Virus record (IMG/VR): IMGVR_UViG_3300033412_000035
DNA length: 40,141 nucleotides
Direction: 5' to 3' (one strand)
Origin: a virus
Shown: positions 3,120-19,920 of the stretch, piece by piece
How the letters are laid out: each line of letters opens with the position of its first letter
Position numbering within the stretch: the first letter of the stretch is position 1
The notes under the pieces: model-generated
The model's input: only the letters and a program-made list of their open reading frames with translations
Told to the model about the DNA's origin: nothing
Databases searched by the model: none
Translations under genes and position numbers: made by a program

Positions 3120-4780
3120 CAGGCTGCGACCTCAATGCGCGGCTTCTCGAGCGTCCACAGCGCATAGCGAAGGGCGGCCGGCCAGTGAGAGAGGTCGGCC
3201 ACGCCCTTCTTCTGCGTCTCCGCGTCGCCGGCCGCGTCACGCTCTGACAGCTCGATCGACTCGACCAGCTTCGGGGCCGCCGGCTGCCGATGGCTGTCGC
3301 AGGCGATGAACAGCCGACGCTCCTGGGCCGCGTTGCAGAGGAGCGCCGCGACCATGTTGATCCCGGCCTCCTTCGGCACGCGGCCGGGACCGGTGCCCGC
3401 CTTGGCGTAGGCGGCCGGCATGATGTCGAGCCCGGCGTTGCGGAAGAGCTTGTAGACGGACCGATCCGGCCGCTGTGCATCGTTGCCCGAGTCGCTGTAG
3501 GGGTCGGCACGGATGAGCGCGCGCAGGCAGTCAGCCCGTCGCTGGCCCCGGAAGTCCTTCTGGTAGCAGCCCCACTTCTGGAGCCGCTCCTGGAGCGCCA
3601 GGACGTGCGTCTCCGTCAGCCCACCCTCGGTCGTGACCTCGTCCACCACCCACCAGGCGTGCTTGCGCGTCCCCTGGATGAGGTACGCCTTGAGCAACAC
3701 CGAGACGTGCTGGAGCTTCCCGGGGTCGTGCCCGACCAGGATCGAGTTGTACGGCCCCCACTCGTTGAGGACGCGTTGCGTGACGTCCTCGGCCCCGATC
3801 TCCGGTACCGGGCGCAGGTTCTTGTCCCGCTCCCAGGTGTGATAGACCATCCGCTCCGGGCCGACGTCGAGGGCGAGGCCGCGGCGGCGCCACTCGCGCT
3901 CGGACACGTTGCGACGCATCCGGTCCCAGTGGTCCGGCCAGACGAACGGGTTCTGGTCGTAGGGGATGCGGAGGATGCGCCAGTCCGGCGACGCGAGCCG
4001 GCTGTCGCGGAAGGTCCGCCACTTCGGAGAGTCCTTGGCGGTCGCGGTCCCGAGACGGCGCGAGGTGCGGACGCCACGGAGACGGGCCTCGATGTCAGCG
4101 TCGGCGCCGCCTTCAACCGTGTCCTGGAGCTCGTCGTCGAGCGAGAAGGCCCAGGTAAAGCCCTGCACCGGGCTCCCGGTCGCCGCCGACTGCTTCTTGG
4201 TCGAGCGGAACTGGATGACGTGCCCGGTGACGAACCGAAGCTCGCGCGCGTCCGCGTACCAGGTCGCCCAGACGCCCGGCCGCATGGACTTGGCGTCGTC
4301 GGTCGGGATGCGCTCGCGGACCGCCTTGACCAGCGTGAGGAGGCGCTCGTGGGTCGGCGCCGTCGCCCCGCCGAAGACGAAGACGCCGGCCATCGCCATG
4401 CGGATGATCTGGACGACGGCCCAGGCGGCGCCGGTCACGGTCTTTCCCCCGCCCTCAGCCGCGTAGAGCAGCGTACGAGTCGCAGTCTCTTGCTGACCGA
4501 GGACCACTTCGGCCTGGATCTCCGAGACGTGCCAGACGAGGTGTCTCTCCGCCGGGCCGATGAACCGCCGGAGGACCAGGTCCCAGCGCCCGCCGATCCG
4601 CTCCGTACGGACCAGGGTGAGCGGTGGTTTGCCCGGAAGCCGAACCGAGCCCGCCGGGTCCTGCCGGACCACCCGAAGCTCGACGGCGAGGTCGATGAAC
4701 CGTTCACCACGTCGGCCTCTAGTTAGAGACTCCGCTTCCCTGGTCAGGGAGTTGCGGAGCTTGGTCCGTAAACTGGACAC
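3119..4780 (-). CDS. terL: Terminase large subunit
   Basis: 553 aa. Walker A-like AAEGGGKT, Walker B-like FSLDDELQD, and a later VGHDPG nuclease-type acidic motif. Confidence 0.85.
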   Translation of the reverse strand: MSSLRTKLRNSLTREAESLTRGRRGERFIDLAVELRVVRQDPAGSVRLPGKPPLTLVRTERIGGRWDLVLRRFIGPAERHLVWHVSEIQAEVVLGQQETATRTLLYAAEGGGKTVTGAAWAVVQIIRMAMAGVFVFGGATAPTHERLLTLVKAVRERIPTDDAKSMRPGVWATWYADARELRFVTGHVIQFRSTKKQSAATGSPVQGFTWAFSLDDELQDTVEGGADADIEARLRGVRTSRRLGTATAKDSPKWRTFRDSRLASPDWRILRIPYDQNPFVWPDHWDRMRRNVSEREWRRRGLALDVGPERMVYHTWERDKNLRPVPEIGAEDVTQRVLNEWGPYNSILVGHDPGKLQHVSVLLKAYLIQGTRKHAWWVVDEVTTEGGLTETHVLALQERLQKWGCYQKDFRGQRRADCLRALIRADPYSDSGNDAQRPDRSVYKLFRNAGLDIMPAAYAKAGTGPGRVPKEAGINMVAALLCNAAQERRLFIACDSHRQPAAPKLVESIELSERDAAGDAETQKKGVADLSHWPAALRYALWTLEKPRIEVAA

Positions 4781-5392: not shown

Positions 5393-6105
5393 CCGAAGAA
5401 GAAGCTCTGGACCTTGCCGCCAAGCGAGAAGCCGGAGCCCTGCCGGAAGCCGGACAAGAACGCCTCGAACGCGCGCGCGCGGCCGCCCTGCCCCGCCTTC
5501 CACGCCTCGACGATGTGCTCCTGGAAGGACGCGTCGATCGCGGCGACGACCTTCGGATCGTTCCAGATGGTCTCGGGCTTCACGAACCGGTTGAAGGCGT
5601 CCGTTATGTTCGCGAACTCGGCCGCGTTCCTCGACGTCGAGGGGTCGAGCCGGTTGGCCGCGACGTTCACCGTCCAGCCCTTCTCCGTCTTGTTCTCGGT
5701 CGCGACCACCGACTCGCGCAGGCGGCCCGAGTGGTTGAGGTACCGGGCCTCGCCGCTCTTCGGGGCCATGTTCCCGATGCGCCCGCCACCGAAGCGCTTC
5801 TGCGCCCAGGGCTTGCCCGCGTCGTAGGCGAGCTCCTGGCGGGTGCGGGTGTAGAGCGTCGAGTCCTTGACCGTCTCCTGGACCCCGCCGATGCGTTCCT
5901 TCATGACCTCGGCGATCGCGGCGGCCGGACCGGCGCCGAGCTGGATCTCATCGAAGTTCACGACCAACGGCTCCGATTGGATCTCGATGGTCATGCGCGC
6001 CTTGCCCCGCGTGCCGTCCTGGCGCTCGCGACCCTGCCGGCCCTTGATGGCGCCGGAGCTAAGGTTCGAGTAGTCGGAGAGGACGATGAAGTCACCGTCG
6101 GCCAT
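5389..6105 (-). CDS. Hypothetical protein (238 aa), last gene of the early-left operon
   Basis: TAATG overlap with the upstream gene at 6105. No motif recognised. Confidence 0.65.
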   Translation of the reverse strand: MADGDFIVLSDYSNLSSGAIKGRQGRERQDGTRGKARMTIEIQSEPLVVNFDEIQLGAGPAAAIAEVMKERIGGVQETVKDSTLYTRTRQELAYDAGKPWAQKRFGGGRIGNMAPKSGEARYLNHSGRLRESVVATENKTEKGWTVNVAANRLDPSTSRNAAEFANITDAFNRFVKPETIWNDPKVVAAIDASFQEHIVEAWKAGQGGRARAFEAFLSGFRQGSGFSLGGKVQSFFFG

Positions 6106-6443
6106 TATTCCTCTTCGCCGCGCGCGCCCGCCAAGATCCGCCGAATCCCTTCGCGCAGCCCCTGTTCAGTCAGGGGAGCACCTTCGGCATATACGTTCAG
6201 CGACACGGTCCACGGTTGAACGAACAGCCCGGCCCCGGTCGTCACCCAAGGCTCCTCTTCGCGCCTGCGCGGGTGGTCGGCACGGGTTGGCGGCGACAAC
6301 TCGCGCTCGTGGGCATGGCAGCAGGTCCCGGCCGCGTGCGCGACGTCGCAACTCCAGCGGCTGCTTTGGAACCGCCCGCCGCAGCAGGGGCAGTCGTATA
6401 CGCCGGAGGTCCCCTTCGCGCCGTCTGAGTCGAACCAGGGCAT
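6105..6443 (-). CDS. Cys/His-rich hypothetical protein (112 aa)
   Basis: The ATG at 6443 lies 4 nt after the ligase stop. Contains CPCCGGRF...C...CCHAH. Only the 3' part of track ORF 6105-6653 is used. Confidence 0.55.
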   Translation of the reverse strand: MPWFDSDGAKGTSGVYDCPCCGGRFQSSRWSCDVAHAAGTCCHAHERELSPPTRADHPRRREEEPWVTTGAGLFVQPWTVSLNVYAEGAPLTEQGLREGIRRILAGARGEEE

Positions 6444-6447
6444 CAGT

Positions 6448-7317
6448 TCACATGACGAGCGTACCATCCAGGTCTGGCCTCGTGCGCACGATCCGAGCGA
6501 ACCGGGGCGCGCTGGTGCCCTCGTAGAACCCCTCGCACCGGACCTCGACCATCTGGCCGCGCTCGAGCACCAGCCCCGCGGCCGACACCGCGAACCGGCG
6601 CCCGGCCCAGAGCAGGCTCGCGGCCCGGCCGTCCGAGCTGAGCACGACCGCATCCAGCGTCTCGCTCGGCTTGACCTTGCGCTTGGCCCCGCGCGCGCCG
6701 AGCGGGGCGTCCAGGTTCACCACGACCAGGCCCTCGCCGTCCGATCGCTCGACCCAGTCCGCCCACGCCTCAGCGACGCGACAGGTCGGCCGCTGGTCGA
6801 TGATGGGCGCCACCCGCCAGTCGGTCGGGACCGGGCGACAGAAACGCCCCGTGGATCGGCTGCGCGCCCCGTGGTCGTCCTCGCACCAGGGGAGGCGCGC
6901 GCCGTAGCACTCGACCTCGGACTGGGCACGCCACAGAGCATCGCGCCGGACCGAGTACGGCTCGCGCCCCAGGTACCGGCCGCCGATCCGGATCGCGTCG
7001 AACAGGTGAAGCGCCCGCCACCCGCGCGAGGCCGCGGACCTGTTGCCCGCCTCCGTGTGCGCCTCGAGCTCGCCCACCAGCTCGGAGCCGGGAAGGCCGA
7101 TGCACGCGCCCATGAGGTCAGACACGAGCAAACGAGGGAACGGGCGCGCCGCCCTCGAGTAGAGCTGGGCGATGCGGCCGCGCTGATCGAGGTGGACGCG
7201 CGCATAGACCCCGTCGATCTTCGGCTGCACGACCCAGCGCGGGCCGAGCTCGCGGACGTCGGCGAGGGAGAGACGTCCAGCGGCGCCGGCGTAGTCGATG
7301 GGACGGGTGCGGGTCAT
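6448..7317 (-). CDS. lig: ATP-dependent DNA ligase (minimal NTase + OB type)
   Basis: Motif I QPKIDGVYA (KxDG), motif III LVGELEA, motif IV EGLVVV, motif V KRKVKP, and a C-terminal RFARIVRTRPD. Confidence 0.85.
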   Translation of the reverse strand: MTRTRPIDYAGAAGRLSLADVRELGPRWVVQPKIDGVYARVHLDQRGRIAQLYSRAARPFPRLLVSDLMGACIGLPGSELVGELEAHTEAGNRSAASRGWRALHLFDAIRIGGRYLGREPYSVRRDALWRAQSEVECYGARLPWCEDDHGARSRSTGRFCRPVPTDWRVAPIIDQRPTCRVAEAWADWVERSDGEGLVVVNLDAPLGARGAKRKVKPSETLDAVVLSSDGRAASLLWAGRRFAVSAAGLVLERGQMVEVRCEGFYEGTSAPRFARIVRTRPDLDGTLVM

Positions 7318-10268: not shown

Positions 10269-10732
10269 ACGTCCTCCCTGCGCGCCCCGCGCTTCTTCGG
10301 GCCGTCGGACTTCGGGCGCTTGAACATCGCCTCAAGCGCCTCGATCGTGTCTCTGCCACCCGAAAGGCTTCCCAGGAACGCCTTGTCGTGATCGGTCAGC
10401 TCACGCCTGACCTTCGCCGCCCTGATGACCTCCTCGGTCCTGTCCACGAGGTCGCGGAGCCTCTCAGCCTGTTCCCGGTCGAGTCGGTCGTAGCAGTCGG
10501 ACGGGCGCATATAGCCCTTCGCGTCCTCGAGGTAGCGATTGACGCAGACGAGCTTCCCGGGGTCGCCCGGAGCCTGGCGAAGCTTCTCGGTCACGAAGCC
10601 GCAGACAGCGCAAGGCCCGGCCGGACGATCCCGGAGCTGCGGCACCGCTCGCACTGGCCCGCCGGTTCGGTAGCGGTCGGCCCGCCGAGCCGCCAGCATG
10701 TCCGCCTCGAATTCGTCCTCGTCGTCGCTCAC
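10265..10732 (-). CDS. Hypothetical protein (155 aa)
   Basis: Overlaps the replication gene stop by 4 nt. Acidic N-terminus, CAVCG motif. Confidence 0.6.
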   Translation of the reverse strand: MSDDEDEFEADMLAARRADRYRTGGPVRAVPQLRDRPAGPCAVCGFVTEKLRQAPGDPGKLVCVNRYLEDAKGYMRPSDCYDRLDREQAERLRDLVDRTEEVIRAAKVRRELTDHDKAFLGSLSGGRDTIEALEAMFKRPKSDGPKKRGARREDV

Positions 10733-11730
10733 GTTGCGTCACCTCGCCCCAGAAGTTCACGAACCACCCTGCTTGGAGCCGGCGCCGGCGGTCCTGCGCG
10801 CGGCTTCTGCGCGTTCGAGCTGTCGTAGGCGGCCTTCGCCTCGGCCAGGTAGTCCGCGAACTTCTCGGGCCCGAAGAGCGTGGAAGGCCGGAGGTACTCG
10901 TTCATCCGCTCGTCGTCGGACCATCGGTTTGCGCGGTCCCAGACGACCATCCGCAGGTCGAGTTCGCTGTACCCGTCGCGCAAAAGCCGAACGATTCGGC
11001 GAGCGTGTATCAGCGTGGTTGGCCGGTAGTCGCGCCCGCTGCGTTCCGAGAGCTTCCCCAGGACGGCCTCGACGGACGCCTTCTCGTCCGCGGTCGGGTC
11101 GGCTGGCTTTGGCTTCTTGCGCCGATGCCTCGCCTGTCTGACTCCCGTCCCCTCTGCCAGTTCGAAATCGGACGGATCCCCCCCTTTGGGGGGTAAGGGG
11201 GGTTCTGGATCTGGATCTCTTGGAGCAGGAGAAGGAGAAGGAGAAGGAGCGCTGGATTGGGCTGGACGACCGCTGGACGACCGCTGGACGACCGCTGGAC
11301 CGGCTGGGTCCAGCCGGCTGGATGACCGCTGGCTAACCATGCGACCTTTCTCGTCGCGGGTGGCTGTCGCAGCTCGAGCCTTACCGCCGGCCTGTGCGGT
11401 CGATCGGCTGTCCTCGAGCCACTCGATCCGCCCCTCTGTTCCCTTCACCCGCACGTGACGGCACCCGGGCGGGTGTTGGTCGGGCTCCGAGCAGTCCATC
11501 CATTCGCCGAGAGCCGCCTGAACGATGTGGGTAGCCGGATCGTCGCCCTCGAAGAACGCGGCCAGAAAAAAGTACGGGATGTCGTATCTGCATCTCTCCG
11601 TGCACCAGGACCAGACCCGGGCCATCTTGATGAGCGCATGGTCGGAGTCGGCGAGCCCGGCGCGCTTGGCCAGGACGGTAAACCGGGGGTCGGTGAACGC
11701 CTGCGGCTCGATCCTGACTGACGCCCCCAT
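10729..11730 (-). CDS. Replication initiator-like protein with a conserved phage C-terminal domain
   Basis: The C-terminus VEAVLGKLSERSGRDYRPTTLIHARRIVRLLRDGYSELDLRMVVWDRANRWSDDERMNEYLRPSTLFGPEKFADYL matches the phage replication-protein C-terminal domain (TIGR02220-type pattern YLRPxTLF...KF). The central linker is Ser/Pro-rich. Confidence 0.7.
   Translation of the reverse strand: MGASVRIEPQAFTDPRFTVLAKRAGLADSDHALIKMARVWSWCTERCRYDIPYFFLAAFFEGDDPATHIVQAALGEWMDCSEPDQHPPGCRHVRVKGTEGRIEWLEDSRSTAQAGGKARAATATRDEKGRMVSQRSSSRLDPAGPAVVQRSSSGRPAQSSAPSPSPSPAPRDPDPEPPLPPKGGDPSDFELAEGTGVRQARHRRKKPKPADPTADEKASVEAVLGKLSERSGRDYRPTTLIHARRIVRLLRDGYSELDLRMVVWDRANRWSDDERMNEYLRPSTLFGPEKFADYLAEAKAAYDSSNAQKPRAGPPAPAPSRVVRELLGRGDAT
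11178..11340. repeat. Iteron-like repeat field inside the replication gene (candidate ori)
   Basis: C7-TTT-G6 inverted repeat (11178-11193), CTGGAT x2, GGAGAA x3.5, and GCTGG(A) starting at 11251, 11261, 11272, 11283, 11294, 11303, 11317 and 11328 (mostly 11-nt phasing). Also a 12-bp palindrome CCAGCCGGCTGG at 11310-11321. Confidence 0.55.
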
Positions 11731-12812: not shown

Positions 12813-13154
12813 ATGGACGACCGCTCAGAGCGGGTACTCGTCGCCACCAAAGACTGGCGGGTGAAGGCGAAAGAGGCGTTTAGAAGCCTTAAACGTGGCT
12901 CTATGGCCGAATGCGCAAGGGAGATCGGCTGCAGCCAGGCCCTCGTCAACAAAATTCTGTCAGGGGAGATCGTCACCTCCGAGATGGTGGGGCCGATCTC
13001 CGATTGGCTGAGGGCGAAAGGGGCTGAGGTGCCACGCCCGCAAGCCGAGATTTCCTCGGAAGCCCAGCGCGAGCTTCTAGACGAGGCTCGTCGCCTCGAC
13101 CCCGAGTCATTCCAGAAGCTGCTTGAGTTTATTCGAGCTGTTCGCCGTCGGTAG
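12813..13154 (+). CDS. Cro-like HTH regulator (113 aa from ATG 12813; 123 aa if from TTG 12783)
   Basis: MAECAREIGCSQALVNKILSGE is an HTH-like core. First gene of the early-right operon. Confidence 0.6.
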   Translation: MDDRSERVLVATKDWRVKAKEAFRSLKRGSMAECAREIGCSQALVNKILSGEIVTSEMVGPISDWLRAKGAEVPRPQAEISSEAQRELLDEARRLDPESFQKLLEFIRAVRRR

Positions 13155-13231
13155 TAGCGAACACCACAGAAACACCTGCCGGTAGGCATTATGTTGTCCG
13201 ACGGGTGCTGGTCCACGACCGAGAGCGCGAC

Positions 13232-13369
13232 ATGAGGGAACTCGAGGAGCATGTACGCGAGCTCTGGGACGAGGAACCAGCGCTCATCGAGGTCGCGCTC
13301 AAGTACGCACGACTCCTGGCGCGAGATGCCCGGGAGCGATTCTTGAGAAAGGGTCAAGTTTGCGCTTGA
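13232..13369 (+). CDS. Possible small helical protein (45 aa)
   Basis: MRELEEHVRELWDEEPALIEVALKYARLLARDARERFLRKGQVCA. GC3-rich codons but a weak RBS. Not in the track. Confidence 0.3.
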   Translation: MRELEEHVRELWDEEPALIEVALKYARLLARDARERFLRKGQVCA

Positions 13370-13408
13370 CCTGAGGTGCCATTCTTGAGTATCGGTTAAG
13401 TCACCGAT
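13339..13408 (+). promoter_or_regulatory. Repeat and hairpin cluster before gene 13407
   Basis: ATTCTTGAG at 13339 and 13381 flank the hairpin GGTCAAG-tttgcg-CTTGACC (13352-13371). A second hairpin, ATCGGT-taagtc-ACCGAT (13391-13408), covers the ATG at 13407. Confidence 0.35.
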
Positions 13409-13715
13409 GCAAGAGAATCACCGGCCGCCTACACCGTCCACCGTTACCACCCGCGCCCTCGCCGGCGCCGCCTCCGAGCTGGCTGAGTCCCGCCACACGA
13501 TGGAGGCGGCCGGCTCGGTCATCGACGTCTTGGTCCAGCAACGGGACTTCTACCGCGCCGGGATGGCCGAAGCCGACCGGTCCGCCAAGAACTACCAGGC
13601 GGCCGGGCTCGCGCTCCTGGGCCTGCTCGGGGACCGACTCCCGCTGCGGACGGCGGAGGCCCGTGAGGTCTTCGAGGCGGCCCGCGACGCGCTCCTGAAC
13701 AAGGTGCGGCCGTGA
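13407..13715 (+). CDS. Hypothetical protein (102 aa)
   Basis: Track ORF. Helical. The next gene overlaps it by GTGA. Confidence 0.55.
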   Translation: MQENHRPPTPSTVTTRALAGAASELAESRHTMEAAGSVIDVLVQQRDFYRAGMAEADRSAKNYQAAGLALLGLLGDRLPLRTAEAREVFEAARDALLNKVRP

Positions 13716-13894
13716 CTACCCCCGACTGCACGCCGGCCGGCCACGAGCGGCTCAAGGCGAACCAGGAGGCGTGGGCGGGGCTGGAGCTGCTCGGTCGCCA
13801 GGAGGTGCCGGGGTTCGACGACGAGGCGGCCTACGAGCTGGAGCTGCGGCAGTGCGCGTGCGGCTCGACGCTGGCGGTGGAGGTGGCGCCATGA
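13712..13894 (+). CDS. Hypothetical protein (60 aa)
   Basis: GTGA and ATGA overlaps at its two ends. Confidence 0.5.
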   Translation: MTTPDCTPAGHERLKANQEAWAGLELLGRQEVPGFDDEAAYELELRQCACGSTLAVEVAP

Positions 13895-14202
13895 CGTGGA
13901 AAGAGCGCATCGAGCGCCTGCGCGCGGTGCCGGGCGGGCGCTTGGAGGTGAGAGATTTCTTCCCGGCTGGCCGGCCACCATATCGGTACGCAGAACTTAA
14001 GGTCGCCATGCCGTCACCGGATGCGGACTGGCGCCCCGCCGTAGCCGCTGTCGAGGCTGCCATCGCAACCGACGGCCACGCCACGGTGTGGACTCATTAC
14101 GAGACGCTCGTGATCGAGGTCTGTATCACCCGCCCCCTCGAGCCTGACGAAATCGAAGGCGTCGAGGTCCCCTGCCTCAGTCGGCCGGTTGAGGTCCCAT
14201 GA
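13891..14202 (+). CDS. Hypothetical protein (103 aa)
   Basis: GGAGGTGG precedes the ATG at 13891. Uses the 3' part of track ORF 13771-14202. Confidence 0.55.
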   Translation: MTWKERIERLRAVPGGRLEVRDFFPAGRPPYRYAELKVAMPSPDADWRPAVAAVEAAIATDGHATVWTHYETLVIEVCITRPLEPDEIEGVEVPCLSRPVEVP

Positions 14203-14419
14203 CCAACTATCGTCGGGACCCGAAGTACCTCACCACCTGCGAGGTCTGCGGCCAGGGGATCGTGCCGTGGAATGGGGGTACCTCGTCGCCGTGTGCCGTC
14301 GCTCTCCGCTCGCCGGCCGAGGGGAGGGCTCCGGCGCCGAGCGCGTCTGCGGCCCACGGTGCGGCGCGTCGTACGCCGTGAAAGCCATACGAAGGCTCGA
14401 GGAGGAGACCAAGAGATGA
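14199..14419 (+). CDS. Zinc-ribbon protein split over two frames (needs a -1 shift or one extra G at 14274-14278)
   Basis: The 5' part, [26 protein letters not shown], starts by ATGA coupling at 14199. The 3' part, ...[46 protein letters not shown], ends by ATGA coupling with recT at 14416-14419 in the -1 frame. Confidence 0.5.
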
Positions 14420-15204
14420 GCGAGGCACTCCAGAAATCAGTGATCGGTCGCGATCAGATTGAACTGGTCAAGACGACAATCTGCCGCGGCTCCACCGACG
14501 ACGAGCTCCAGCTCTTCGTTGCCACATGCAACCGCCTCGGACTCGACCCGTTCGCGCGACAGGTGTTCGCCGTCAAGCGATGGGACTCGAAGCTCAAGCA
14601 AGAGGTGATGGCCATCCAGACCAGCATCGACGGCTATCGTCTGGTCGCCGCGCGAACCGGCCAGTACGACGGACAGGAGGGTCCGTACTGGTGCGGTGAC
14701 GACGGCCAGTGGCATGACGTCTGGCTCAGCAAGTCGTCGCCGCGCGCAGCCAAGGTCGTCGTCTACCGCAAGGGCTGTAGCCATCCGTTCCCCGGAATCG
14801 CGCACTGGTCGAGTTACGTCGCCACGACCAAGGAGGGAACTCCGACCACGATGTGGCAGAGGATGCCCGAGGTGATGCTCGGGAAATGCGCCGAGGCGCT
14901 AGCGCTTCGCAAGGCGTTCCCGGCTGAGCTGTCTGGCGTCTACACCAGGGAGGAGATGGAGCAGTCTGATAACGAGCCTCTGCCGCGGGGCCTGCGAGTG
15001 GTCCATCGCGAGGCGACGACGGATGTTGACCAGGCTCCTCTCGAGGATCGCATCCTCGCGGCTACAACCCTGGACGACCTCGGGAGACTCGTCGGTGAAC
15101 TGAAGCGAGCCGATGCCGATACCCGAGAGCGGCTGCGCCCGATCTACACGCAGCGGCGCGCGGAGCTGCTCCAGGCGGAGACGAAGAGGGATCCGGCCCC
15201 ATGA
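14416..15204 (+). CDS. recT: RecT-family single-strand annealing recombinase
   Basis: GGAGGAGA precedes the ATG at 14416. Motifs [31 protein letters not shown] and [16 protein letters not shown]. Confidence 0.85.
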
Positions 15205-15581
15205 AGCGACGGAAGGGAACGTTTGGCATCCTCGACGTCGAGAACATCGACGAGAAGATCGATGAACTGAACGAGACGCTGGGAAGACCGAAACCGAAGA
15301 AGAAACCCGCAACCGACTCCGCCCGCCACGCCCGCAACCGCGCCGCCCGACTCGCAGCCGGCCTGTGTGCCGACTGTGGACGCGAACGAGCGCGCCCGGG
15401 CAAGACGCAGTGCCAGGAGTGCGCGGACAGGCAGGAGAGCGCGCGCATCCGTCGGGCCCGGGGCGTCTTCCTGTACGGGCGCTGCGAGTGGTGTTTCGGC
15501 CGGCACCTGACCGCGCAGTGCCAACTCCGCCGCATCGGGATGAGGGCCGTCGTCATCGCGGGGAGAGAGGTGCCGCTGTGA
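15201..15581 (+). CDS. Cys-rich hypothetical protein (126 aa)
   Basis: ATGA overlap with recT. Contains CADCG...CQEC...CEWC. Confidence 0.6.
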
Positions 15582-15616
15582 CGCTTCAACGAGACGTGAA
15601 CGAGGAGGGACGGTAG

Positions 15617-15922
15617 ATGGCAAAGACAGCACCCAAGAAGGCGACCAACGGCGAGCGGCCGGTGGTGGTGACGACGGCGCACCGGGGCATTTTCTTCGGG
15701 TACGCGTCGGACACGGACGGGGAGACGATCCAGCTCAAGCGCGCGCGGCTGTGCGTGTACTGGTCGGCGGACTGTAAGGGCTTCATGGGCCTGGCGTCGG
15801 GCGGCCCCACGGCCTCGTGCAAGATCGGGCCGGCGGCTGACATCACGCTGCGATCGATCACGTCCGTGCTCGAGGTGACGCCCGAGGCGGTGGCGGCGTG
15901 GGAGCGGGCCCCGTGGGGGTGA
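15617..15922 (+). CDS. Hypothetical protein (101 aa)
   Basis: GAGGAGGGA precedes the ATG. No function recognised. Confidence 0.6.
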   Translation: MAKTAPKKATNGERPVVVTTAHRGIFFGYASDTDGETIQLKRARLCVYWSADCKGFMGLASGGPTASCKIGPAADITLRSITSVLEVTPEAVAAWERAPWG

Positions 15923-16479
15923 GTCCGCGGCTGCTGCGCGGCGAGCCGACCGCCTGGGCAGCGAGCGGCTCCGGCTACGGCTCCGGCGACGGCTACGGCT
16001 ACGGCCACGGCTACGGCTACGGCTACGGCTACGGCTACGGCTCCGGCTACGGCTCCGGCTACGGCTACGGCTACGGCGACGGCTACGGCTACGGCTCCGG
16101 CTACGGCTCCGGCTACGGCGACGGCTACGGCTACGGCTACGGCGACGGCTACGGCGACGGCTACGGCTACGGCTACGGCGACGGCTACGGCGACGGCTAC
16201 GGCTACGGCTACGGCTCCGGCTACGGCTCCGGCGACGGCTACGGCTACGGCGACGGCTACGGCTCGCTGGAGGACGTCGCTCGCTGCCAGCCCGACGAGT
16301 CCCTGGTCACCAAGCGGGTGCTGGCGGACCGGAAGGTGTGCTCCGACCAGCTCAAGCTGTTCATCAAGACGTTCCCCGACGGGATGCGGTGGCCGGCGCA
16401 GATCCAGGAAGCGGAGGCAGCCGGGCTCGACGTCTCGTGGGGCTGCACGAACCTCGGGCTCCTGAGGCCGGTCCCGTGA
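15919..16479 (+). CDS. (Gly-Tyr/Ser/Asp)x50 repeat protein with a unique 71-aa C-terminal domain
   Basis: The GTG at 15919 overlaps the upstream stop (GTGA). The repeat is in frame with the flanking unique sequence, and GAAGGAGG for the next gene follows the stop. Confidence 0.65.
   Translation: MSPRLLRGEPTAWAASGSGYGSGDGYGYGHGYGYGYGYGYGSGYGSGYGYGYGDGYGYGSGYGSGYGDGYGYGYGDGYGDGYGYGYGDGYGDGYGYGYGSGYGSGDGYGYGDGYGSLEDVARCQPDESLVTKRVLADRKVCSDQLKLFIKTFPDGMRWPAQIQEAEAAGLDVSWGCTNLGLLRPVP
15967..16266 (+). repeat. Hexanucleotide satellite (GGC-NNC)x50
   Basis: Every odd codon is GGC. The even codons are TAC (31), TCC/TCG (9), GAC (9) and CAC (1). There is a perfect 36-nt tandem duplication (16141-16176 = 16177-16212). 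Confidence 0.95.
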
Positions 16480-16495
16480 AGGAGGCGCTCTAACC

Positions 16496-16606
16496 ATGGC
16501 ACTCGCTATCGTGGCGGCTCTCACCGCCTTCGGGGGCATCAGCTACGCGATGGGCTATCGAACGGGCTGGAGGAGCAGGCAGAGGGCGACGGGGGCGCGG
16601 AGGTGA
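16496..16606 (+). CDS. Small single-TM protein (36 aa)
   Basis: MALAIVAALTAFGGISYAMGYRTGWRSRQRATGARR. GAAGGAGG lies 10 nt upstream. The stop overlaps the next GTG (GTGA). Not in the track. Confidence 0.45.
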   Translation: MALAIVAALTAFGGISYAMGYRTGWRSRQRATGARR

Positions 16607-17421
16607 AGGAGCGCCCCATCCTGTTCTCCGGCCCCATGGTCCGGGCAATCCTCGAGGGAAGGAAGACCCAGACGAGGCGGGTCGTTGACCTGTCTCGGCT
16701 CCGGGTCCGTCTGCCGCGCGCCGTCCATTCCGACCCGATTCCTGGCCTGCCCGGACTCAGCGCTAGGCCGGGGGTCCGCCCGGCCACGCTCAACCAGCAT
16801 GGAGCCGTCGCCACCATCTGCGCGAGCGCCGAGACGCTTGGCGGCTCGCTGGGGCTCAAGCCCGGCGAGTTCAACTTCGAGTGCCCCTACGCCGCCGGCG
16901 ACACGCATCTCGGCGACTACGGCAGCGGCCGCAAGGTCTGGACGGTCACTCCGAAGGCATCTCGGCTGTGGGTCCGCGAGGCATTCCGGTTCGAGGCTGG
17001 GTTCAACGACCTGCCGCCGCGCGAGGTCCCGGACGATGCGGAGGTCTGGTACGAGGCGACCGTAGATTGGCGCTACTCGAGCGCGGGCCGCCTACGCCCC
17101 GGCCAGTTCATGCCCCGCTGGGCCTCCCGCCTCACTCTCGAGGTGACCGGCGTCCGGGTCGAGAGGCTGCAGGACATCTCGGAGGAGGATGCGCGGGCGG
17201 AGGGCGTCGAGCCGTACACGCCGCCGCACGGCAACGTCTCACCCGATCAGCGGGTGCCCGGCCCCGGGTTCAACCGCGCACGCCTCGGCGACCAGCCTCA
17301 CCGGCTTCCGTTCGCCGACCTCTGGGACTCCATCAACGGCAAGCGCGCGCCCTGGTCGTCGAACCCGTGGGTCTGGGTCGTCGAGTTCCGGCGTGTCGAG
17401 GCCCAGGAGGCTGCCGCTTGA
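16603..17421 (+). CDS. ASCH/PUA-like domain protein (272 aa)
   Basis: The N-terminus ILFSGPMVRAILEGRKTQTRR and the C-terminus NPWVWVVEFRRV are patterns I associate with phage ASCH-domain proteins. Recalled from memory, not searched. Confidence 0.5.
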   Translation: MKERPILFSGPMVRAILEGRKTQTRRVVDLSRLRVRLPRAVHSDPIPGLPGLSARPGVRPATLNQHGAVATICASAETLGGSLGLKPGEFNFECPYAAGDTHLGDYGSGRKVWTVTPKASRLWVREAFRFEAGFNDLPPREVPDDAEVWYEATVDWRYSSAGRLRPGQFMPRWASRLTLEVTGVRVERLQDISEEDARAEGVEPYTPPHGNVSPDQRVPGPGFNRARLGDQPHRLPFADLWDSINGKRAPWSSNPWVWVVEFRRVEAQEAAA

Positions 17422-17488
17422 ACCAGCTCCTCGCCACCGTCGCCGAGGCCGCCGAGGTCCTCCGGGTGTCGCCGTCCTCGGAGGTACG

Positions 17489-17896
17489 ATGACCTCGTTC
17501 CTCACTGTCGCCCAGGTCGCCGAGGTCCATGGTCCCGGGGCCGCCTACGACGATGACATCATCCGTGCGATCGCGAGTCGGCGTCGTCGGTTCGGCGACC
17601 GCGACCGGGTCTGCTATTTCGCGCAGTGCGCGCGCACCGGCCTAATCAAGATCGGGATAACCGGAAACCTCGAGGAGCGGCTCGCCTGGCTCTCCTGCGC
17701 CACCGGCCTGGCGGTGAAGCTGCTCGGCGTCGTCCAGGACGTCCAGTGGCCCGAGGAGGTCCTGCATGCGCTGTTCGACCACTGGCGCGTGGACCGCAGC
17801 TTCGAATCGATCGGGACGATGCGCCTGGGCAGCGAGTGGTTCAGACCGGCGCCGGAACTGCTCGCGTTTATTGCGTCGGAGGCCGCCCTGCCGTGA
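17489..17896 (+). CDS. T5orf172 / GIY-YIG-superfamily domain protein (135 aa)
   Basis: GGAGG precedes the ATG at 17489. Motifs GLIKIGITGNLEERL...EEVLHALF...GSEWF. Confidence 0.65.
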   Translation: MTSFLTVAQVAEVHGPGAAYDDDIIRAIASRRRRFGDRDRVCYFAQCARTGLIKIGITGNLEERLAWLSCATGLAVKLLGVVQDVQWPEEVLHALFDHWRVDRSFESIGTMRLGSEWFRPAPELLAFIASEAALP

Positions 17897-17993
17897 GTCG
17901 TCGCACCGACGAGATAGCGGCTCGCGTCGAGGAACGGCTCGTGCGTAGACTTGTCCGGCACGGGATCTTGCCGCGTCGGGTTCTGGAGGACCG

Positions 17994-19004
17994 ATGCGAC
18001 AACGACGAAAGCGAGGACGAGTCTATGGACCTTACGAGGAGCCCGGGGGGTGGCGCGTCGTCGTCATCAACGCCAAGGGCGAGCGCACTAGTGCGACGTT
18101 TGCGCGAGAAAGAGAGGCAGTCGCGGAGCGGCTCGCCGCCGAACGCGAGCTCGAGACCGAGGTCATCACGGTGAGCCAGGCCTTGGTCAAGTATGAGGAG
18201 TACCAGGTCGCCAAGGGGAACAAGCCCCGGTCGATCGCGACCACCAAGGAGCGCCTGCGCAGCCTGCTGCGGGACCAGGAGGAGTGCCTCGTGGACCTCA
18301 CCCCTGCCCGCTGCCAGCGCCTCTACGACGACTTGGCGGCCCGGGTGGCGGTGGATACCCATCGCAACACATTGAACCAGGCGCGGACCTTCTTCCGGTG
18401 GGCGGAGAAACGCGGCTTCGTTCGGGCGAACCCGCTAGCGTCGGTGGACGGCATCGGCCGGCGCAGGCGCGGCAAGCCCCAGCTCAGGATCGACGAGGCG
18501 CGGGCGTTCGTGTCGGTGGCGGCCGCGATGGCACGGGCGGGCGATCGTGGAGCCCTGGGAGCCCTCATGGCGCTCCTGATGGGGATGCGAGCGAGCGAGA
18601 TTCTGCGGCTGGAGGCGCGCGACGTGGACGACGCGGGCCGGGTCATCTGGATCGACGACGCCAAGACCGAGGCCGGCCGGCGGACCCTGTACGTCCCGCC
18701 GGAGCTGACCGACCTGCTCAAGGCGGCGGCGGCCGAGGGCGGGCAGCTCTTACCGACCCAGGAGCACCAGTGGCTCAACCGGCAGGTACGCCACCTCTGC
18801 GGGCTGGCGGGCGTTCCACGGGTCTGCACCCACGGCCTGCGCGGGACCCACGCGACGCTGGGCACCGAGTTCGGGTCGTCGTCCCTGGTCGTCTCACAGG
18901 CGCTCGGGCACGCCAGCGAGGACATCACGCGGGCCCACTACACGCTGCCGGAAGCCTCGGCGGCAGCGGTCCAGCGGCGGGTCACCCTGAGGCTCAAGGA
19001 GTAG
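17994..19004 (+). CDS. int: Tyrosine integrase
   Basis: N-terminus RGRVYGPYEEPGGWRVVV. Catalytic-region motifs MGMRASEIL, HGLRGTHAT and LGHASEDITRAHY. Confidence 0.9.
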   Translation: MRQRRKRGRVYGPYEEPGGWRVVVINAKGERTSATFAREREAVAERLAAERELETEVITVSQALVKYEEYQVAKGNKPRSIATTKERLRSLLRDQEECLVDLTPARCQRLYDDLAARVAVDTHRNTLNQARTFFRWAEKRGFVRANPLASVDGIGRRRRGKPQLRIDEARAFVSVAAAMARAGDRGALGALMALLMGMRASEILRLEARDVDDAGRVIWIDDAKTEAGRRTLYVPPELTDLLKAAAAEGGQLLPTQEHQWLNRQVRHLCGLAGVPRVCTHGLRGTHATLGTEFGSSSLVVSQALGHASEDITRAHYTLPEASAAAVQRRVTLRLKE

Positions 19005-19020
19005 ACGTAAGTGAGGCAGA

Positions 19021-19043
19021 CGAACCTTTCCGAACCTTTTCCG
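19021..19043 (+). repeat. Tandem CGAACCTTT(T)C repeat just after int (candidate arm-type or accessory site)
   Basis: cgaacctttc cgaaccttttc read directly. Confidence 0.4.
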
Positions 19044-19070
19044 CGGCGAGTGCCGTCGGCCTCTAAGTTG

Positions 19071-19112
19071 TCGGGGCGATGGGATTTGAACCCACGGCCC
19101 CCAGACCCCCAG
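19071..19112 (-). other. attP core candidate: the 3' portion of a tRNA (T-arm plus acceptor 3' strand), not a full gene
   Basis: The reverse strand reads CTGGGGG TCTGG GGGCC GTGGG TTCAAAT CCCAT CGCCCCG A. There is a GTTCAAATC T-loop but no matching 5' acceptor strand upstream. The acceptor and loop are compatible with a Pro(GGG)-type tRNA; this assignment is tentative. Confidence 0.65.
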
Positions 19113-19258
19113 TCACAGGGACATCAACGATGTAGCAGATGTACGACAAACATTTTTCCCGATAGTGCGCAAGGTCCCGTGCAGACTCTGCGATCCGTCG
19201 GAAAAGATGGCCGGGAGTGTGCTCAGCCTGTACCGCCGCCTGCGGGTGAGGTGCGGCC

Positions 19259-19444
19259 GTGAAGCCCTTCGCGAAGCCGGAGAATGCCGCCGCCTTGGTC
19301 GCGCTTCGGCGGCTCGCCGATACCTTTCGATCCGTGAACGGCCGGATGCCGACGCAGGAAGAGTTGGACGTCGCGATCGATCGCGCGGGCCTGCCCTACC
19401 GGATCAGCGTTGAGCTGCTCAGCGGCGACCGGGGGTTCGCATGA
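19259..19444 (+). CDS. Hypothetical protein (61 aa)
   Basis: GTG start preceded by GGTGAGGTG. The sequence looks more protein-like than the overlapping frame 19165-19413. Confidence 0.5.
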   Translation: MKPFAKPENAAALVALRRLADTFRSVNGRMPTQEELDVAIDRAGLPYRISVELLSGDRGFA

Positions 19445-19920
19445 GGATCGACCTGGAAGAACTACGCGGGAAACTCGCGTCGTGGGGTTCGCCATGTGAG
19501 CACCGGGTGCCGAACGCGGGCGGGTCGGTCGAATCGCAGCTACACGGCGTCTGCATTTTCTGCTGGCGCGACCGCGGGGCCGCCCTGGCGATGGCGATTC
19601 CTGGCCTTGTTGCGGAGATACGGCAGATCCGCGACTTCGGGTCGGACGATCCGGCGGTCATCGCCAGGCTGGAGCGACTAGACGATGCAGGCGCCTCATC
19701 CGGCCCCCGCGCCCGCATCGAGGCCGCCCTGCCCCGGCTCAACCTGGACGAGCTCGAGGTCGCGGCCCTCATCGCCGAGCGCCTGGTCGCCGGACAGAAG
19801 GTCTACGGCCCGCTCGACCTGGCCACGGACCAGCGGGACTTCCGGCGCGAGGGGCACGAGGAGGCGGTGGACGCCGCCATCTACCTGGCCTGCGAGACCC
19901 TGAAGAGGAGGGGGACGTGA
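19441..19920 (+). CDS. Hypothetical protein (159 aa), Ead/Ea22-like flavour
   Basis: ATGA overlap upstream. AIPGLVAEIRQIR resembles the Ea22-type motif. Weak call. Confidence 0.5.
   Translation: MRIDLEELRGKLASWGSPCEHRVPNAGGSVESQLHGVCIFCWRDRGAALAMAIPGLVAEIRQIRDFGSDDPAVIARLERLDDAGASSGPRARIEAALPRLNLDELEVAALIAERLVAGQKVYGPLDLATDQRDFRREGHEEAVDAAIYLACETLKRRGT

What the first reader, a model, noticed from the sequence alone, without database searches (positions are those of the whole stretch)
15919..16479. 50 consecutive Gly-X dipeptides encoded by a GGC-NAC hexanucleotide satellite in an early gene
**Seen directly.** Nt 15967-16266 consist only of GGC alternating with TAC (31), TCC/TCG (9), GAC (9) and CAC (1). 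This gives GSGYGSGDGYGYGHGYGYGYGYGYGS...

**Why I think it is coding.**
- The array is in frame with a GTGA-coupled start at 15919.
- It continues into a unique 71-aa C-terminal domain (LEDVARCQPDESLVTKRVLADRKVCSDQLKLFIKTFPDGMRWPAQIQEAEAAGLDVSWGCTNLGLL).
- That domain is followed by an RBS and a further coupled gene.

**Signs of recent expansion.**
- A perfect 36-nt tandem duplication (16141-16176 = 16177-16212).
- A second 32-nt identity (16081 vs 16201).
- These fit slippage or unequal recombination, so length is probably variable between isolates.

**Inference.** I know of no characterised phage function for a Tyr-rich, FUS/resilin-like low-complexity segment sitting between recT and the integrase. 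It could be a disordered, condensate-forming or cross-linkable domain, or a length-variable spacer.
Basis: partly seen in the sequence, partly recalled or inferred. Interest (0 to 1): 0.75.

Follow-up and report, generated by a model that had tools for sequence, protein, structure and literature searches.

The report
Phage poly(Gly-Tyr) protein paired with DUF6948
A temperate phage gene really does encode 50 uninterrupted Gly-X pairs (mostly Gly-Tyr), and it belongs to a widespread, undescribed two-gene phage module whose repeat varies in length, breaks genome assemblies and marks the point where end domains are swapped.

Summary
Nt 15967-16266 are 50 x (GGC-NNC): TAC 31, GAC 9, TCC 8, TCG 1, CAC 1. 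They are in frame with a GTG start (15913 or 15919) that overlaps the stop of the upstream gene.

The array is coding. The C-terminal 70 aa form a real folded domain (AF2 pLDDT 89-97) with 34 relatives, so it is not unique.

The upstream gene is DUF6948. In every related locus where the junction is visible (7/7 anchored on the C-domain, 31/31 anchored on DUF6948), DUF6948 is followed by a coupled gene encoding:
- a conserved N-motif (hhLRGxLPxW);
- a (Gly-[Tyr/Ser/Asp])n array of 8-80 pairs;
- a swappable end domain, or none.

Each array uses one Gly codon (GGC or GGG, depending on lineage). Ser is almost always TCC. His and Cys are virtually absent. This shows microsatellite-style concerted evolution plus selection on the protein.

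DNA similarity between phages stops at the array. About a third to a half of contigs end inside it.

AF2 predicts the array to be disordered. No function is known for any part. My best inference is a multivalent, Tyr-driven self-associating scaffold that works with DUF6948 in early infection.

The parts
15617..15922 (+). DUF6948 gene (101 aa). It is the highly conserved upstream partner, and its stop at 15920-15922 overlaps the start of the array gene.
   Evidence: Pfam PF22253, E 8e-24. An alignment of 31 homologues has invariant TT.HRG.FFG, YW, GF.GLA..GP and IGPAADI.LR.IT motifs. It lies immediately upstream of an array gene in 7/7 and 31/31 related loci.
15913..16479 (+). Gly-X array protein gene (188 aa from GTG 15913, or 186 aa from GTG 15919; TGA at 16477-16479).
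   Evidence: ORF listing and translation. The gene call on record for the Logan contig starts at 15913. GC3 of the unique C-terminal part is 0.96. Homologues with the same three-part layout exist.
15928..15966 (+). Conserved N-terminal motif, RLLRGEPTAWAAS. The family consensus is h-h-(L/I)-R-G-x-(L/V/P)-P-x-W-(A/T).
   Evidence: Found in 20 distinct relatives, regardless of which end domain follows the array. AF2 confidence is low (about 52) and the motif does not dock on the C-domain.
15967..16266 (+). Hexanucleotide satellite (GGC-NAC)50, encoding 50 Gly-X dipeptides (X = Y31, S9, D9, H1) and 31 GYG triplets.
   Evidence: Residues 19-119 have pLDDT <50 in the full-length model. All Gly codons are GGC, P about 1e-13. 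As RNA it is no more structured than shuffles, z = +3.3.
16110..16215 (+). Most recently expanded sub-array: a 36-nt period in 2.9 copies, with a 70-nt exact self-repeat at offset 36.
16267..16476 (+). Type-A C-terminal domain (70 aa; folded core about 16300-16455). The fold is strand, two helices, strand, two helices.
   Evidence: 36 hits among 1.84e9 representative proteins, best E 9e-14; 34 are credible. AF2 gives pLDDT 89.5 alone and about 97 in the full-length model. Relatives P0029 and P0030 carry the precomputed hit PF27195. There is no PDB match by sequence or fold.
16480..16606 (+). Context: RBS AGGAGG (16480-16485) and a 36-aa hydrophobic ORF (ATG 16496 to TGA 16604-16606), GTGA-coupled to the ASCH-like/phrog_874 gene at 16603-17421.
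   Evidence: These downstream genes are not conserved in related loci.
14416..15581 (+). Context: RecT annealase gene (14416-15204) and a Cys-rich 126-aa ORF (15201-15581) in the same operon, directly upstream of the module.
   Evidence: Pfam RecT, E 3e-32. Gene calls on record. Recombination genes (YqaJ, RecT, ERF, AAA_24) recur upstream of the module in other loci. No + strand terminator-like site lies between 12.5 and 19.5 kb.

Best explanation
**Shown**
- The GGC-NAC satellite is the translated core of a phage early protein with three parts:
  - a 13-aa conserved N-terminal motif;
  - a 100-residue strictly alternating Gly-X tract (Tyr-rich, mildly acidic, predicted disordered);
  - a small folded C-terminal domain.
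- The gene is the translationally coupled downstream partner of a very conserved DUF6948 gene.
- DUF6948 + N-motif + array is a discrete mobile cassette in many uncultivated temperate phages. It often sits after the exonuclease/annealase recombination genes.
- The tract evolves like a hexanucleotide microsatellite. Slippage or unequal exchange changes the copy number, and each array is homogenised to one Gly codon.
- Selection on the protein restricts X to Tyr, Ser and Asp.
- The array is the boundary at which sequence similarity between phages ends and at which different end domains (type A as here, a DUF7666-like type B, others, or none) are joined.

**Inferred**
- The many Tyr residues, spaced by Gly/Ser/Asp, act as multivalent 'stickers'. 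They would make the protein self-associate into a condensate, gel or amyloid-like assembly.
- Together with DUF6948, this assembly would concentrate or sequester whatever the end domain binds during early infection.
- Array length would tune that behaviour.
For: **The array is coding and selected as protein.**
- Across 46 distinct arrays (1,338 dipeptides), X is Y 41%, S 26% and D 25%.
- Ser is TCC 327, TCT 21, TCG 4 and AGC 0, so it derives almost entirely from codons one step from TAC or TAT.
- The transition neighbours of TAC are almost absent: CAC (His) 1 and TGC (Cys) 0.
- Gly is GGC or GGG, depending on the lineage, and 98% of arrays use a single Gly codon.

**Real family.**
- 34 credible homologues of the C-domain (of 36 hits), most with N-motif + array.
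- AF2 on the domain gives pLDDT 89.5-97.

**Obligate pairing with DUF6948.**
- 7/7 loci anchored on the C-domain have DUF6948 directly upstream, with overlapping starts in 6.
- 31/31 IMG/VR loci anchored on DUF6948 show the N-motif and/or an array next.
- Two NCBI MAG contigs show the same arrangement.
- DUF6948 has at least 2,909 clusters at 90% identity.

**The array itself is core.** Array-only proteins occur, identical in three samples (L077-L079) and in L074.

**Mosaic boundary.**
- blastn similarity of the window to relatives is confined to about 15635-16265.
- L045 and L021 are 98.7% identical from inside the array onward but unrelated upstream.
- End-domain types are interspersed on the DUF6948 tree. 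The window (type A) groups with L044 (type B, 81% aa identity).

**Length variation.** 24 vs 31 pairs with 99.6% identical flanks.

**Disorder.** pLDDT <50 for residues 19-119.

**Self-assembly precedent.** The GYGYGYG heptapeptide self-assembles into fibrils with polar zippers (PMC8163036). From my own knowledge, [G/S]Y[G/S] is the sticker motif of the FUS low-complexity domain.

**Context.** Recombination genes lie upstream in about a third of loci.
Against: - No experiment or homology links any part to a function. DUF6948, the type-A domain and DUF7666 are all uncharacterised.
- Self-association is inferred only from composition.
- Nine Asp in the array add charge repulsion, which could keep the tract soluble and extended.
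- AF2 disorder fits a passive linker equally well.
- The partner of the N-motif is unknown, and AF2 does not dock it on the C-domain.
- Array lengths come from short-read assemblies, which often fail at these repeats.
Confidence: 0.45

Rival explanations
1. Passive spacer. The array is only a flexible, length-variable tether that sets the distance between the N-terminal motif (docked on DUF6948 or another partner) and the C-terminal binding domain.
For: - AF2 predicts disorder.
- The array lies between two conserved elements.
- Length ranges from 8 to 80 pairs with no obvious optimum.
Against: - Array-only proteins, and proteins with the array at the C-terminal end, have nothing to tether (L077-L079, L074, L047).
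- A spacer would not need 41-62% Tyr. The exclusion of His and Cys and the retention of Tyr point to a role for the side chains.
Confidence: 0.2
2. Substrate model. DUF6948 recognises the N-motif as a leader and acts on the Gly-Tyr tract, for example by cross-linking or modifying Tyr. The array would then be a repetitive 'core peptide' or material precursor.
For: - The pairing is obligate and translationally coupled.
- A conserved leader-like N-motif sits next to a hypervariable tract.
- DUF6948 is very conserved, with invariant or nearly invariant His, Arg, Cys, Asp, Tyr and Trp.
Against: - DUF6948 is only about 85 aa and matches no enzyme family or solved structure.
- The neighbourhood census of upstream ORFs found no protease, transporter or radical-SAM genes recurring across loci.
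- Folded C-terminal domains are atypical for such precursors.
Confidence: 0.12
3. Split SSB-like arrangement. DUF6948 is the nucleic-acid-binding core. The array protein supplies a detachable Gly-rich disordered linker and a partner-binding tip, as in the linker and tip of bacterial SSB.
For: - The module sits directly after annealase/exonuclease genes, where phage ssb genes commonly lie (my own knowledge).
- No SSB Pfam family was seen in the 71 upstream ORFs scanned.
- In L001 the two genes are in the same frame, separated by one TGA.
Against: - There is no evidence that DUF6948 has an OB fold.
- The array is acidic and Tyr-rich rather than Gly/Gln/Pro-rich.
- There is no acidic C-terminal tip; the protein ends LGLLRPVP.
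- Only about a third of loci have recombination genes nearby.
Confidence: 0.1
4. DNA-level element. The repeat matters as DNA, as a recombination hot spot that shuffles cassettes or as a replication or binding site. The encoded peptide would be incidental.
For: - Mosaic breakpoints coincide with the array.
- The array lies next to recT.
- Arrays from unrelated loci are 85-93% identical in DNA.
Against: - GGC-type and GGG-type arrays differ in DNA yet encode the same Gly-Tyr/Ser/Asp pattern.
- The X-codon spectrum shows selection on amino acids.
- The frame is always continuous with conserved coding flanks.
- Domain shuffling is better read as a by-product of the array.
Confidence: 0.08
5. Assembly artefact. 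The array, or its length, is a product of short-read assembly.
For: - About a third to a half of related contigs end inside such arrays.
- A k=31 assembly of the run that holds an identical DUF6948 protein stops 27 nt into the array.
- 16 55-mers in the region are non-unique.
Against: - Arrays in the same position and frame occur in more than 40 independent contigs from many samples.
- Three independent assemblies give an identical 73-aa array protein.
- All 77-mers of the window's array are unique.
- At most the copy number of the 36-nt unit is in doubt.
Confidence: 0.03

Closest known systems
FUS/EWS/TAF15 (FET) low-complexity domains
   Same: Both have dense [G/S]Y[G/S] triplets: 31 GYG in 100 residues here, against about 27 in 214 residues of FUS (my own knowledge). 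Both are predicted disordered. In FET proteins Tyr acts as the sticker and Gly/Ser as the spacer.
   Different: FET domains are Gln/Ser-rich degenerate repeats, not a strict dipeptide. They are eukaryotic and are not DNA-level microsatellites. Here Asp is a major component, and the tract is paired with a dedicated partner gene. Phase separation is untested.
Silk fibroin heavy-chain (Gly-X)n repeats
   Same: Strict alternation of Gly with a second residue over long stretches, including GY and GS units. The coding DNA is repetitive and length-polymorphic (my own knowledge).
   Different: In silk X is mostly Ala/Ser and the product is a secreted beta-sheet fibre. Here X is 62% Tyr, 18% Asp and 18% Ser, the protein is cytoplasmic and small, and AF2 predicts no beta structure.
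Designed prion-inspired heptapeptide GYGYGYG (with SYSYSYS and NYNYNYN)
   Same: It is identical to segments of this array. These peptides self-assemble into fibrils with polar zippers (PMC8163036).
   Different: These are synthetic 7-mers studied in vitro. The natural array is 100 residues long, is interrupted by Asp and Ser, and is flanked by other modules.
Bacterial SSB disordered linker plus C-terminal tip
   Same: A Gly-rich disordered segment ending in a protein-interaction element, encoded next to recombination genes.
   Different: There is no OB fold in the polypeptide and no acidic tip, and the composition differs (Tyr/Asp rather than Gly/Gln/Pro).
Collagen-like (Gly-X-Y)n repeats of phage tail fibres
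   Same: A Gly-periodic, length-variable coding repeat in phage genomes.
   Different: The period is 3, not 2. Those repeats are Pro-rich triple helices in structural genes. This array has period 2, no Pro, and lies in an early-gene region.
Tyr/Ser/Asp/Gly 'minimal code' of antibody CDRs and the Gly-Tyr repeats of bovine ultralong CDR H3 D segments
   Same: The restricted alphabet is the same (G, Y, S, D). In the bovine case the repeated GY codons serve as a mutational substrate (PMC7366855, listed; its role in recognition is from my own knowledge).
   Different: Those are short loops on a folded scaffold, diversified somatically. Here the tract is a long germline tandem array with no scaffold.

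Membership tests
   The window has a GTGA overlap at 15919-15922. The same holds in 6 other C-domain-anchored loci and 31 DUF6948-anchored loci.
   The window has RLLRGEPTAWAAS. Twenty relatives were aligned.
   The window has 50 pairs, all GGC, with X = Y31, S9, D9, H1.
Type-A end domain (probably Pfam PF27195) | Significant sequence similarity to family members over the whole domain. | tested here: met
   phmmer E values from 9e-14 to 1e-4 for 34 proteins. Invariant or near-invariant residues are A24, C25, F32, F36, P37, G39, P43, D45, A49, G53, W58 and L65.
Type-A end domain (probably Pfam PF27195) | A score above the gathering threshold of the PF27195 model. | not testable with these tools
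   PF27195 appears only as a precomputed hit on relatives P0029 and P0030. The model is not in the local Pfam copy, which returned no hits, and no paper names it.
FET/FUS-type Tyr-rich low-complexity (prion-like) domain | Dense [G/S]Y[G/S] motifs in a disordered segment. | tested here: met
   31 GYG triplets in 100 residues. pLDDT is <50 for residues 19-119.
FET/FUS-type Tyr-rich low-complexity (prion-like) domain | A Gln/Asn/Ser-rich degenerate repeat composition. | tested here: not met
   The window's array has no Gln or Asn. It is a strict dipeptide with 9 Asp.
FET/FUS-type Tyr-rich low-complexity (prion-like) domain | Tyr-dependent phase separation or hydrogel formation. | not testable with these tools
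   This needs purified protein or live-cell imaging.
Silk-fibroin-type (Gly-X)n | Strict Gly alternation. | tested here: met
   50/50.
Silk-fibroin-type (Gly-X)n | X is dominated by Ala/Ser, giving beta-sheet crystallites. | tested here: not met
   X is Tyr 62%, Asp 18%, Ser 18% and Ala 0. AF2 assigns no strands in the array.
Collagen-like repeat | Gly at every third residue. | tested here: not met
   The period is 2 residues (6 nt).
SSB (disordered linker plus tip) | An OB-fold DNA-binding domain and an acidic C-terminal tip. | tested here: not met
   There are no SSB or OB matches in Pfam or PDB for the array protein or for DUF6948. The C-terminus is LGLLRPVP. The fold of DUF6948 itself was not predicted.
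MORN_2 / YwqK-like repeat proteins | MORN_2 repeats. | tested here: not met
   The window protein has none. Only a separate subgroup carrying the type-A domain has them: P0007, P0016, P0017, P0027, L011, L025 and L043.

The most novel reading that the evidence does not exclude
DUF6948 plus the poly(Gly-Tyr/Ser/Asp) protein is a previously unrecognised, widespread phage system. In this reading a genetically hypervariable, FUS-like polymer forms a regulated intracellular material (a condensate or a functional amyloid). DUF6948 would act as its nucleator, chaperone or modifier. The array would also serve as a built-in junction for swapping effector domains. This would be the first dedicated Tyr-sticker low-complexity system described in viruses of prokaryotes.
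Probability: 0.3. Interest if true: 0.85.

Novelty: new variant of a known kind. Interest (0 to 1): 0.72.

Why it matters
- **A tractable natural system.** If the inferred mechanism holds, phages of soil and freshwater bacteria carry a compact two-gene system built around a nearly pure Gly-Tyr polymer. It would be a natural, genetically tunable counterpart of eukaryotic Tyr-rich low-complexity domains. It would suit tests of how sticker number and spacing control assembly in a bacterial cytoplasm.
- **A hidden gene class.** Independently of mechanism, the work defines a large, unannotated gene pair. DUF6948 has at least 2,909 clusters at 90% identity, all labelled 'hypothetical'.
- **A bias in metagenome assemblies.** A third to a half of contigs end inside the array, so this gene class has been systematically truncated in short-read assemblies.
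- **Domain shuffling.** A coding microsatellite marks the boundary at which different protein domains are joined in phage genomes.

Tried and rejected
**Spurious hits**
- Low-complexity hits were rejected: Pfam TrAA12 (24.8 bits against a cut-off of 30.9) and NCBIfam ser_rich_anae_1 (23.9 against 650).
- P0033 and P0036, from the representative search, match only through a WxSVCWSxELGLF repeat.
- Five of six genome-collection pattern hits, and about a third of the metagenome hits, were chance matches.

**Searches that found nothing**
- Single-sequence searches with the C-domain found nothing in the word-indexed protein search, in IMG/VR or in GenBank phages.
- Profile searches against PDB sequences and Foldseek against PDB gave no match for the type-A domain. 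PDB sequence searches gave none for DUF6948 or type B.
- The best BFVD match is an uncharacterised Siphoviridae protein.
- PADLOC had nothing for the module.
- Exact-sequence look-ups of the array protein and the ASCH-like protein were not on record.
- No sibling contig was found in IMG/VR with the exact 3' junction.
- Literature searches for DUF6948, DUF7666, PF27195 and the repeat strings found nothing relevant to phages.

**Hypotheses tested and rejected**
- That the N-motif docks on the C-domain and closes the array into a loop: AF2 does not support this.
- That the mRNA or DNA repeat forms a special structure: the RNA folds worse than shuffles, z = +3.3.
- That the reverse-strand ORF 15586-16539 (Ala-Val repeats) is real: it overlaps DUF6948 and uses the rare GTA codon, and it becomes Val-Pro in GGG-type lineages.
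- That type A and type B end domains are related: hhalign probability is 0.2%.
Full report
**1.

- Nt 15967-16266 are exactly 50 repeats of GGC followed by TAC (31), GAC (9), TCC (8), TCG (1) or CAC (1). They translate to GSGYGSGDGYGYGHGY....
- Tandem Repeats Finder gives this the highest score in the window (472).
- The 36-nt perfect duplication and the 32-nt identity are exact. They belong to a 36-nt period present in 2.9 copies (16110-16215), with a 70-nt exact self-repeat.
- Confident genes of the window use GGC for 55% of Gly codons, so 50/50 GGC has P about 1e-13. The array is therefore homogenised at the DNA level, not merely Gly-rich.

**2. The array is coding, in the Gly-X frame**

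- The frame is open from 15898 to TGA 16477-16479. Candidate GTG starts are at 15913 (the start in the gene call on record for the Logan contig) and 15919. Both overlap the stop of the upstream gene (15920-15922).
- The unique C-terminal 70 codons have GC3 = 0.96.
- The strongest argument is comparative. Related arrays use GGC-TAC in some lineages and GGG-TAC in others. The Gly-Tyr reading is conserved, while the other frames and the reverse strand are not.
- The 317-aa reverse-strand ORF (Ala-Val repeats) is a by-product.
- The array RNA is less structured than shuffled controls (z = +3.3).
- No + strand terminator-like site interrupts 12.5-19.5 kb.

**3. The C-terminal domain is real but not unique**

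- Pfam, PHROGs, NCBIfam and PADLOC gave nothing usable. Neither did a tblastn of GenBank phages or a word-indexed search.
- An exhaustive HMMER search of 1.84 billion representative proteins found 36 hits, best E 9e-14. Thirty-four are clearly homologous.
- With their alignment (A1), AlphaFold2 gives a confident small fold: strand, two helices, strand, two helices. pLDDT is 89.5 and pTM 0.73.
- There is no match in the PDB by sequence or fold. BFVD gives only an uncharacterised Siphoviridae protein.
- Two relatives carry a precomputed hit to PF27195. That family is newer than the local Pfam copy, so I could not name it.
- The domain also occurs alone (for example after an ERF annealase gene in L041). 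It also occurs at the N-terminus of MORN_2-repeat proteins, including four tandem paralogues in L025.

**4. The array protein is the obligate partner of DUF6948**

- The upstream gene (15617-15922) is DUF6948 (PF22253, E 8e-24).
- In all seven loci where a type-A array gene has its upstream region intact (the window, L001, L021, L031, L038, L040, L042), DUF6948 lies immediately upstream. It ends in ...PWG*, and the array gene starts by overlap in the -1 frame in six. In L001 it starts after a single in-frame TGA.
- The reverse test agrees. All 31 IMG/VR loci retrieved with the window's DUF6948 show the N-terminal motif and/or a Gly-X array next. In L046 an HNH homing-endonuclease gene is inserted between the two.
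- Two NCBI MAG contigs show the same arrangement.
- DUF6948 is abundant: at least 2,909 clusters at 90% identity, all 'hypothetical'.
- DUF6948 is unusually conserved, at about 75% identity with many invariant residues.
- It is absent from 50,697 GenBank phage records at tblastn sensitivity. It has no PDB, PHROG or NCBIfam match.

**5. The constant core and the variable end domain**

The constant core is DUF6948 + N-motif + array. The N-motif, h-h-(L/I)-R-G-x-(L/V/P)-P-x-W-(A/T), is seen in 20 distinct relatives. What follows the array varies:

| End domain | Loci |
|---|---|
| Type A | the window and 7 others |
| Type B, about 115 aa, distantly related to DUF7666 (hhalign E 2e-4), unrelated to type A | 16 loci |
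| DUF7666 placed before the array | L047, L048 |
| Another N-terminal domain | L053, L076 |
| None (array only); a 73-aa protein identical in three samples | L077-L079, L074 |

- On a DUF6948 tree these types are interspersed. The window (type A) groups with L044 (type B, 81% aa identity).
- blastn of window 13000-19500 against all loci gives similarity confined to about 15635-16265. Only three type-A loci extend further, into the C-domain.
- L045 and L021 are 98.7% identical from inside the array onward and unrelated upstream.
- The array is therefore a mosaic boundary at which modules are exchanged.

**6. How the array evolves**

- In 46 distinct arrays (1,338 dipeptides; 8-80 pairs, median 25), 98% use a single Gly codon.
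- X is Tyr 41%, Ser 26%, Asp 25%, Asn 3% and Thr 1.6%.
- Ser is TCC (327), TCT (21) or TCG (4), and never AGC. It therefore arises by point mutation of TAC or TAT and spreads by duplication.
- The transition neighbours of TAC are almost absent: His (CAC) 1 and Cys (TGC) 0.
- This pattern is concerted evolution of a hexanucleotide microsatellite under selection on the amino-acid alphabet.
- Close relatives differ in copy number: L045 has 24 pairs and L013 has 31, with 99.6% identity over 2.65 kb of flank.
- The window's array is among the longest uninterrupted runs. At 62% Tyr it is richer in Tyr than the family average.

**7. Assembly caveat**

- 13 of 36 DUF6948-anchored contigs and 11 of 21 C-domain-anchored array contigs end inside the array or at its edge.
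- A k=31 assembly of SRR9009773, which holds an identical DUF6948 protein, stops 27 nt into the array. That assembly is also fragmented elsewhere.
- In the window all 77-mers of the region are unique, but 16 55-mers are not.
- The array is therefore real, but the copy number of the 36-nt unit should be checked with long reads.

**8. Structure and context**

- Full-length AF2 (A4) gives pLDDT <50 for residues 19-119, about 52 for the N-motif and about 97 for the C-domain. The N-motif does not dock on the domain.
- A Pfam census of 71 ORFs within 4 kb upstream of DUF6948 in 30 loci shows YqaJ (4), RecT (3), ERF (2) and AAA_24 (1), plus regulators and integrases.
- In the window the order is:
  - RecT (14416-15204)
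  - a Cys-rich ORF (15201-15581)
  - DUF6948
  - the array gene
  - a 36-aa hydrophobic ORF
  - an ASCH-like/phrog_874 gene
  - a T5orf172 gene
  - the integrase
- The genes downstream of the module are not conserved among loci.

**9. Mechanism**

- *Shown:* a translated, disordered, Tyr-rich Gly-X tract. It is obligately coupled to DUF6948, hypervariable in length, selected in composition, and sits at the junction of swappable domains.
- *Inferred:* the 31 GYG units act as multivalent stickers.
  - GYGYGYG peptides self-assemble into fibrils with polar zippers (PMC8163036).
  - [G/S]Y[G/S] is the sticker of FUS-type domains (my own knowledge).
  - The protein would therefore self-associate into a condensate, gel or amyloid-like scaffold. 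DUF6948 would be its partner, and the end domain would supply a target.
- I give the whole statement 0.45. The shown parts alone deserve about 0.9, and the assembly mechanism about 0.35.
- Rivals are scored separately: passive spacer, substrate of DUF6948, split SSB-like pair, DNA-level element, and artefact.

**10. Comparison and novelty**

- The closest analogues are FET low-complexity domains and silk (Gly-X)n. The array fails defining features of both: it has no Gln/Asn and is a strict dipeptide, and X is not Ala/Ser with no predicted beta structure. It is not collagen-like, because the period is 2.
- No paper in the searchable library mentions DUF6948, DUF7666, PF27195 or these repeat strings in phages.
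- I rate it a new variant of a known kind, namely a Tyr/Gly low-complexity domain. It occurs in an undescribed phage two-gene module whose function is open.

Noticed in passing
window 11204-11300: Three adjacent tandem repeats: (TCTGGA)2.5, (GGAGAA)4.7 and a perfect 11-nt (CTGGACGACCG)3.6. They lie inside the Pro/Ser-rich linker of the Phg_2220_C gene (10729-11730, minus strand). They look like iterons and may mark the phage replication origin.
   Followed up: no
L005, L013, L015, L016, L020, L022, L024, L027, L029, L032, L037, L053, L058-L060, L062, L063, L065-L067, L069, L070, L075, L076: These contigs, from JGI, ENA, IMG/VR and NCBI MAGs, end inside or at the edge of the Gly-X array. This gene class is systematically truncated in short-read assemblies.
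   Followed up: partly
L001 5213-5464 and 5779-6225: Two nearby proteins of one phage, a Cys-rich ORF and the array protein, both end in DELYHAQ[F/W]. This suggests a shared C-terminal docking peptide.
   Followed up: no
L046 about 4300-4750: An HNH_3 homing-endonuclease gene is inserted between DUF6948 and its array gene. It is the only locus where the pair is split.
   Followed up: partly
L025 (four copies, minus strand), L011, L043: The type-A domain also heads MORN_2-repeat proteins. L025 carries four tandem paralogues, an arrangement reminiscent of immunity-protein arrays.
   Followed up: partly
P0023 and P0041 (proteins): In P0023 the first 16 or so residues of DUF6948 (AVLVTTAHRGVFFGY) are fused directly to a Gly-Tyr array and a type-A domain. 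P0041 is a DUF6948 with an internal N-terminal duplication.
   Followed up: no
L041, oriented coordinates about 5400-6487: A 56-aa type-A domain with no array and no DUF6948 lies directly after an ERF-family annealase gene.
   Followed up: no
window 16496-16606: A 36-aa hydrophobic ORF (MALAIVAALTAFGGISYAMGY...) has a strong AGGAGG RBS and is GTGA-coupled to the ASCH-like/phrog_874 gene at 16603-17421.
   Followed up: no
window 33883-36093 (minus strand): A 736-aa protein with a SASA carbohydrate-esterase domain and PKD domains. It may be a virion-associated enzyme that modifies a host surface polysaccharide receptor.
   Followed up: no
window 17489-17896: A T5orf172/MUG113 (GIY-YIG-related) gene lies just upstream of the integrase. 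It has weak PADLOC PDC-S57 hits, E 0.0025.
   Followed up: no
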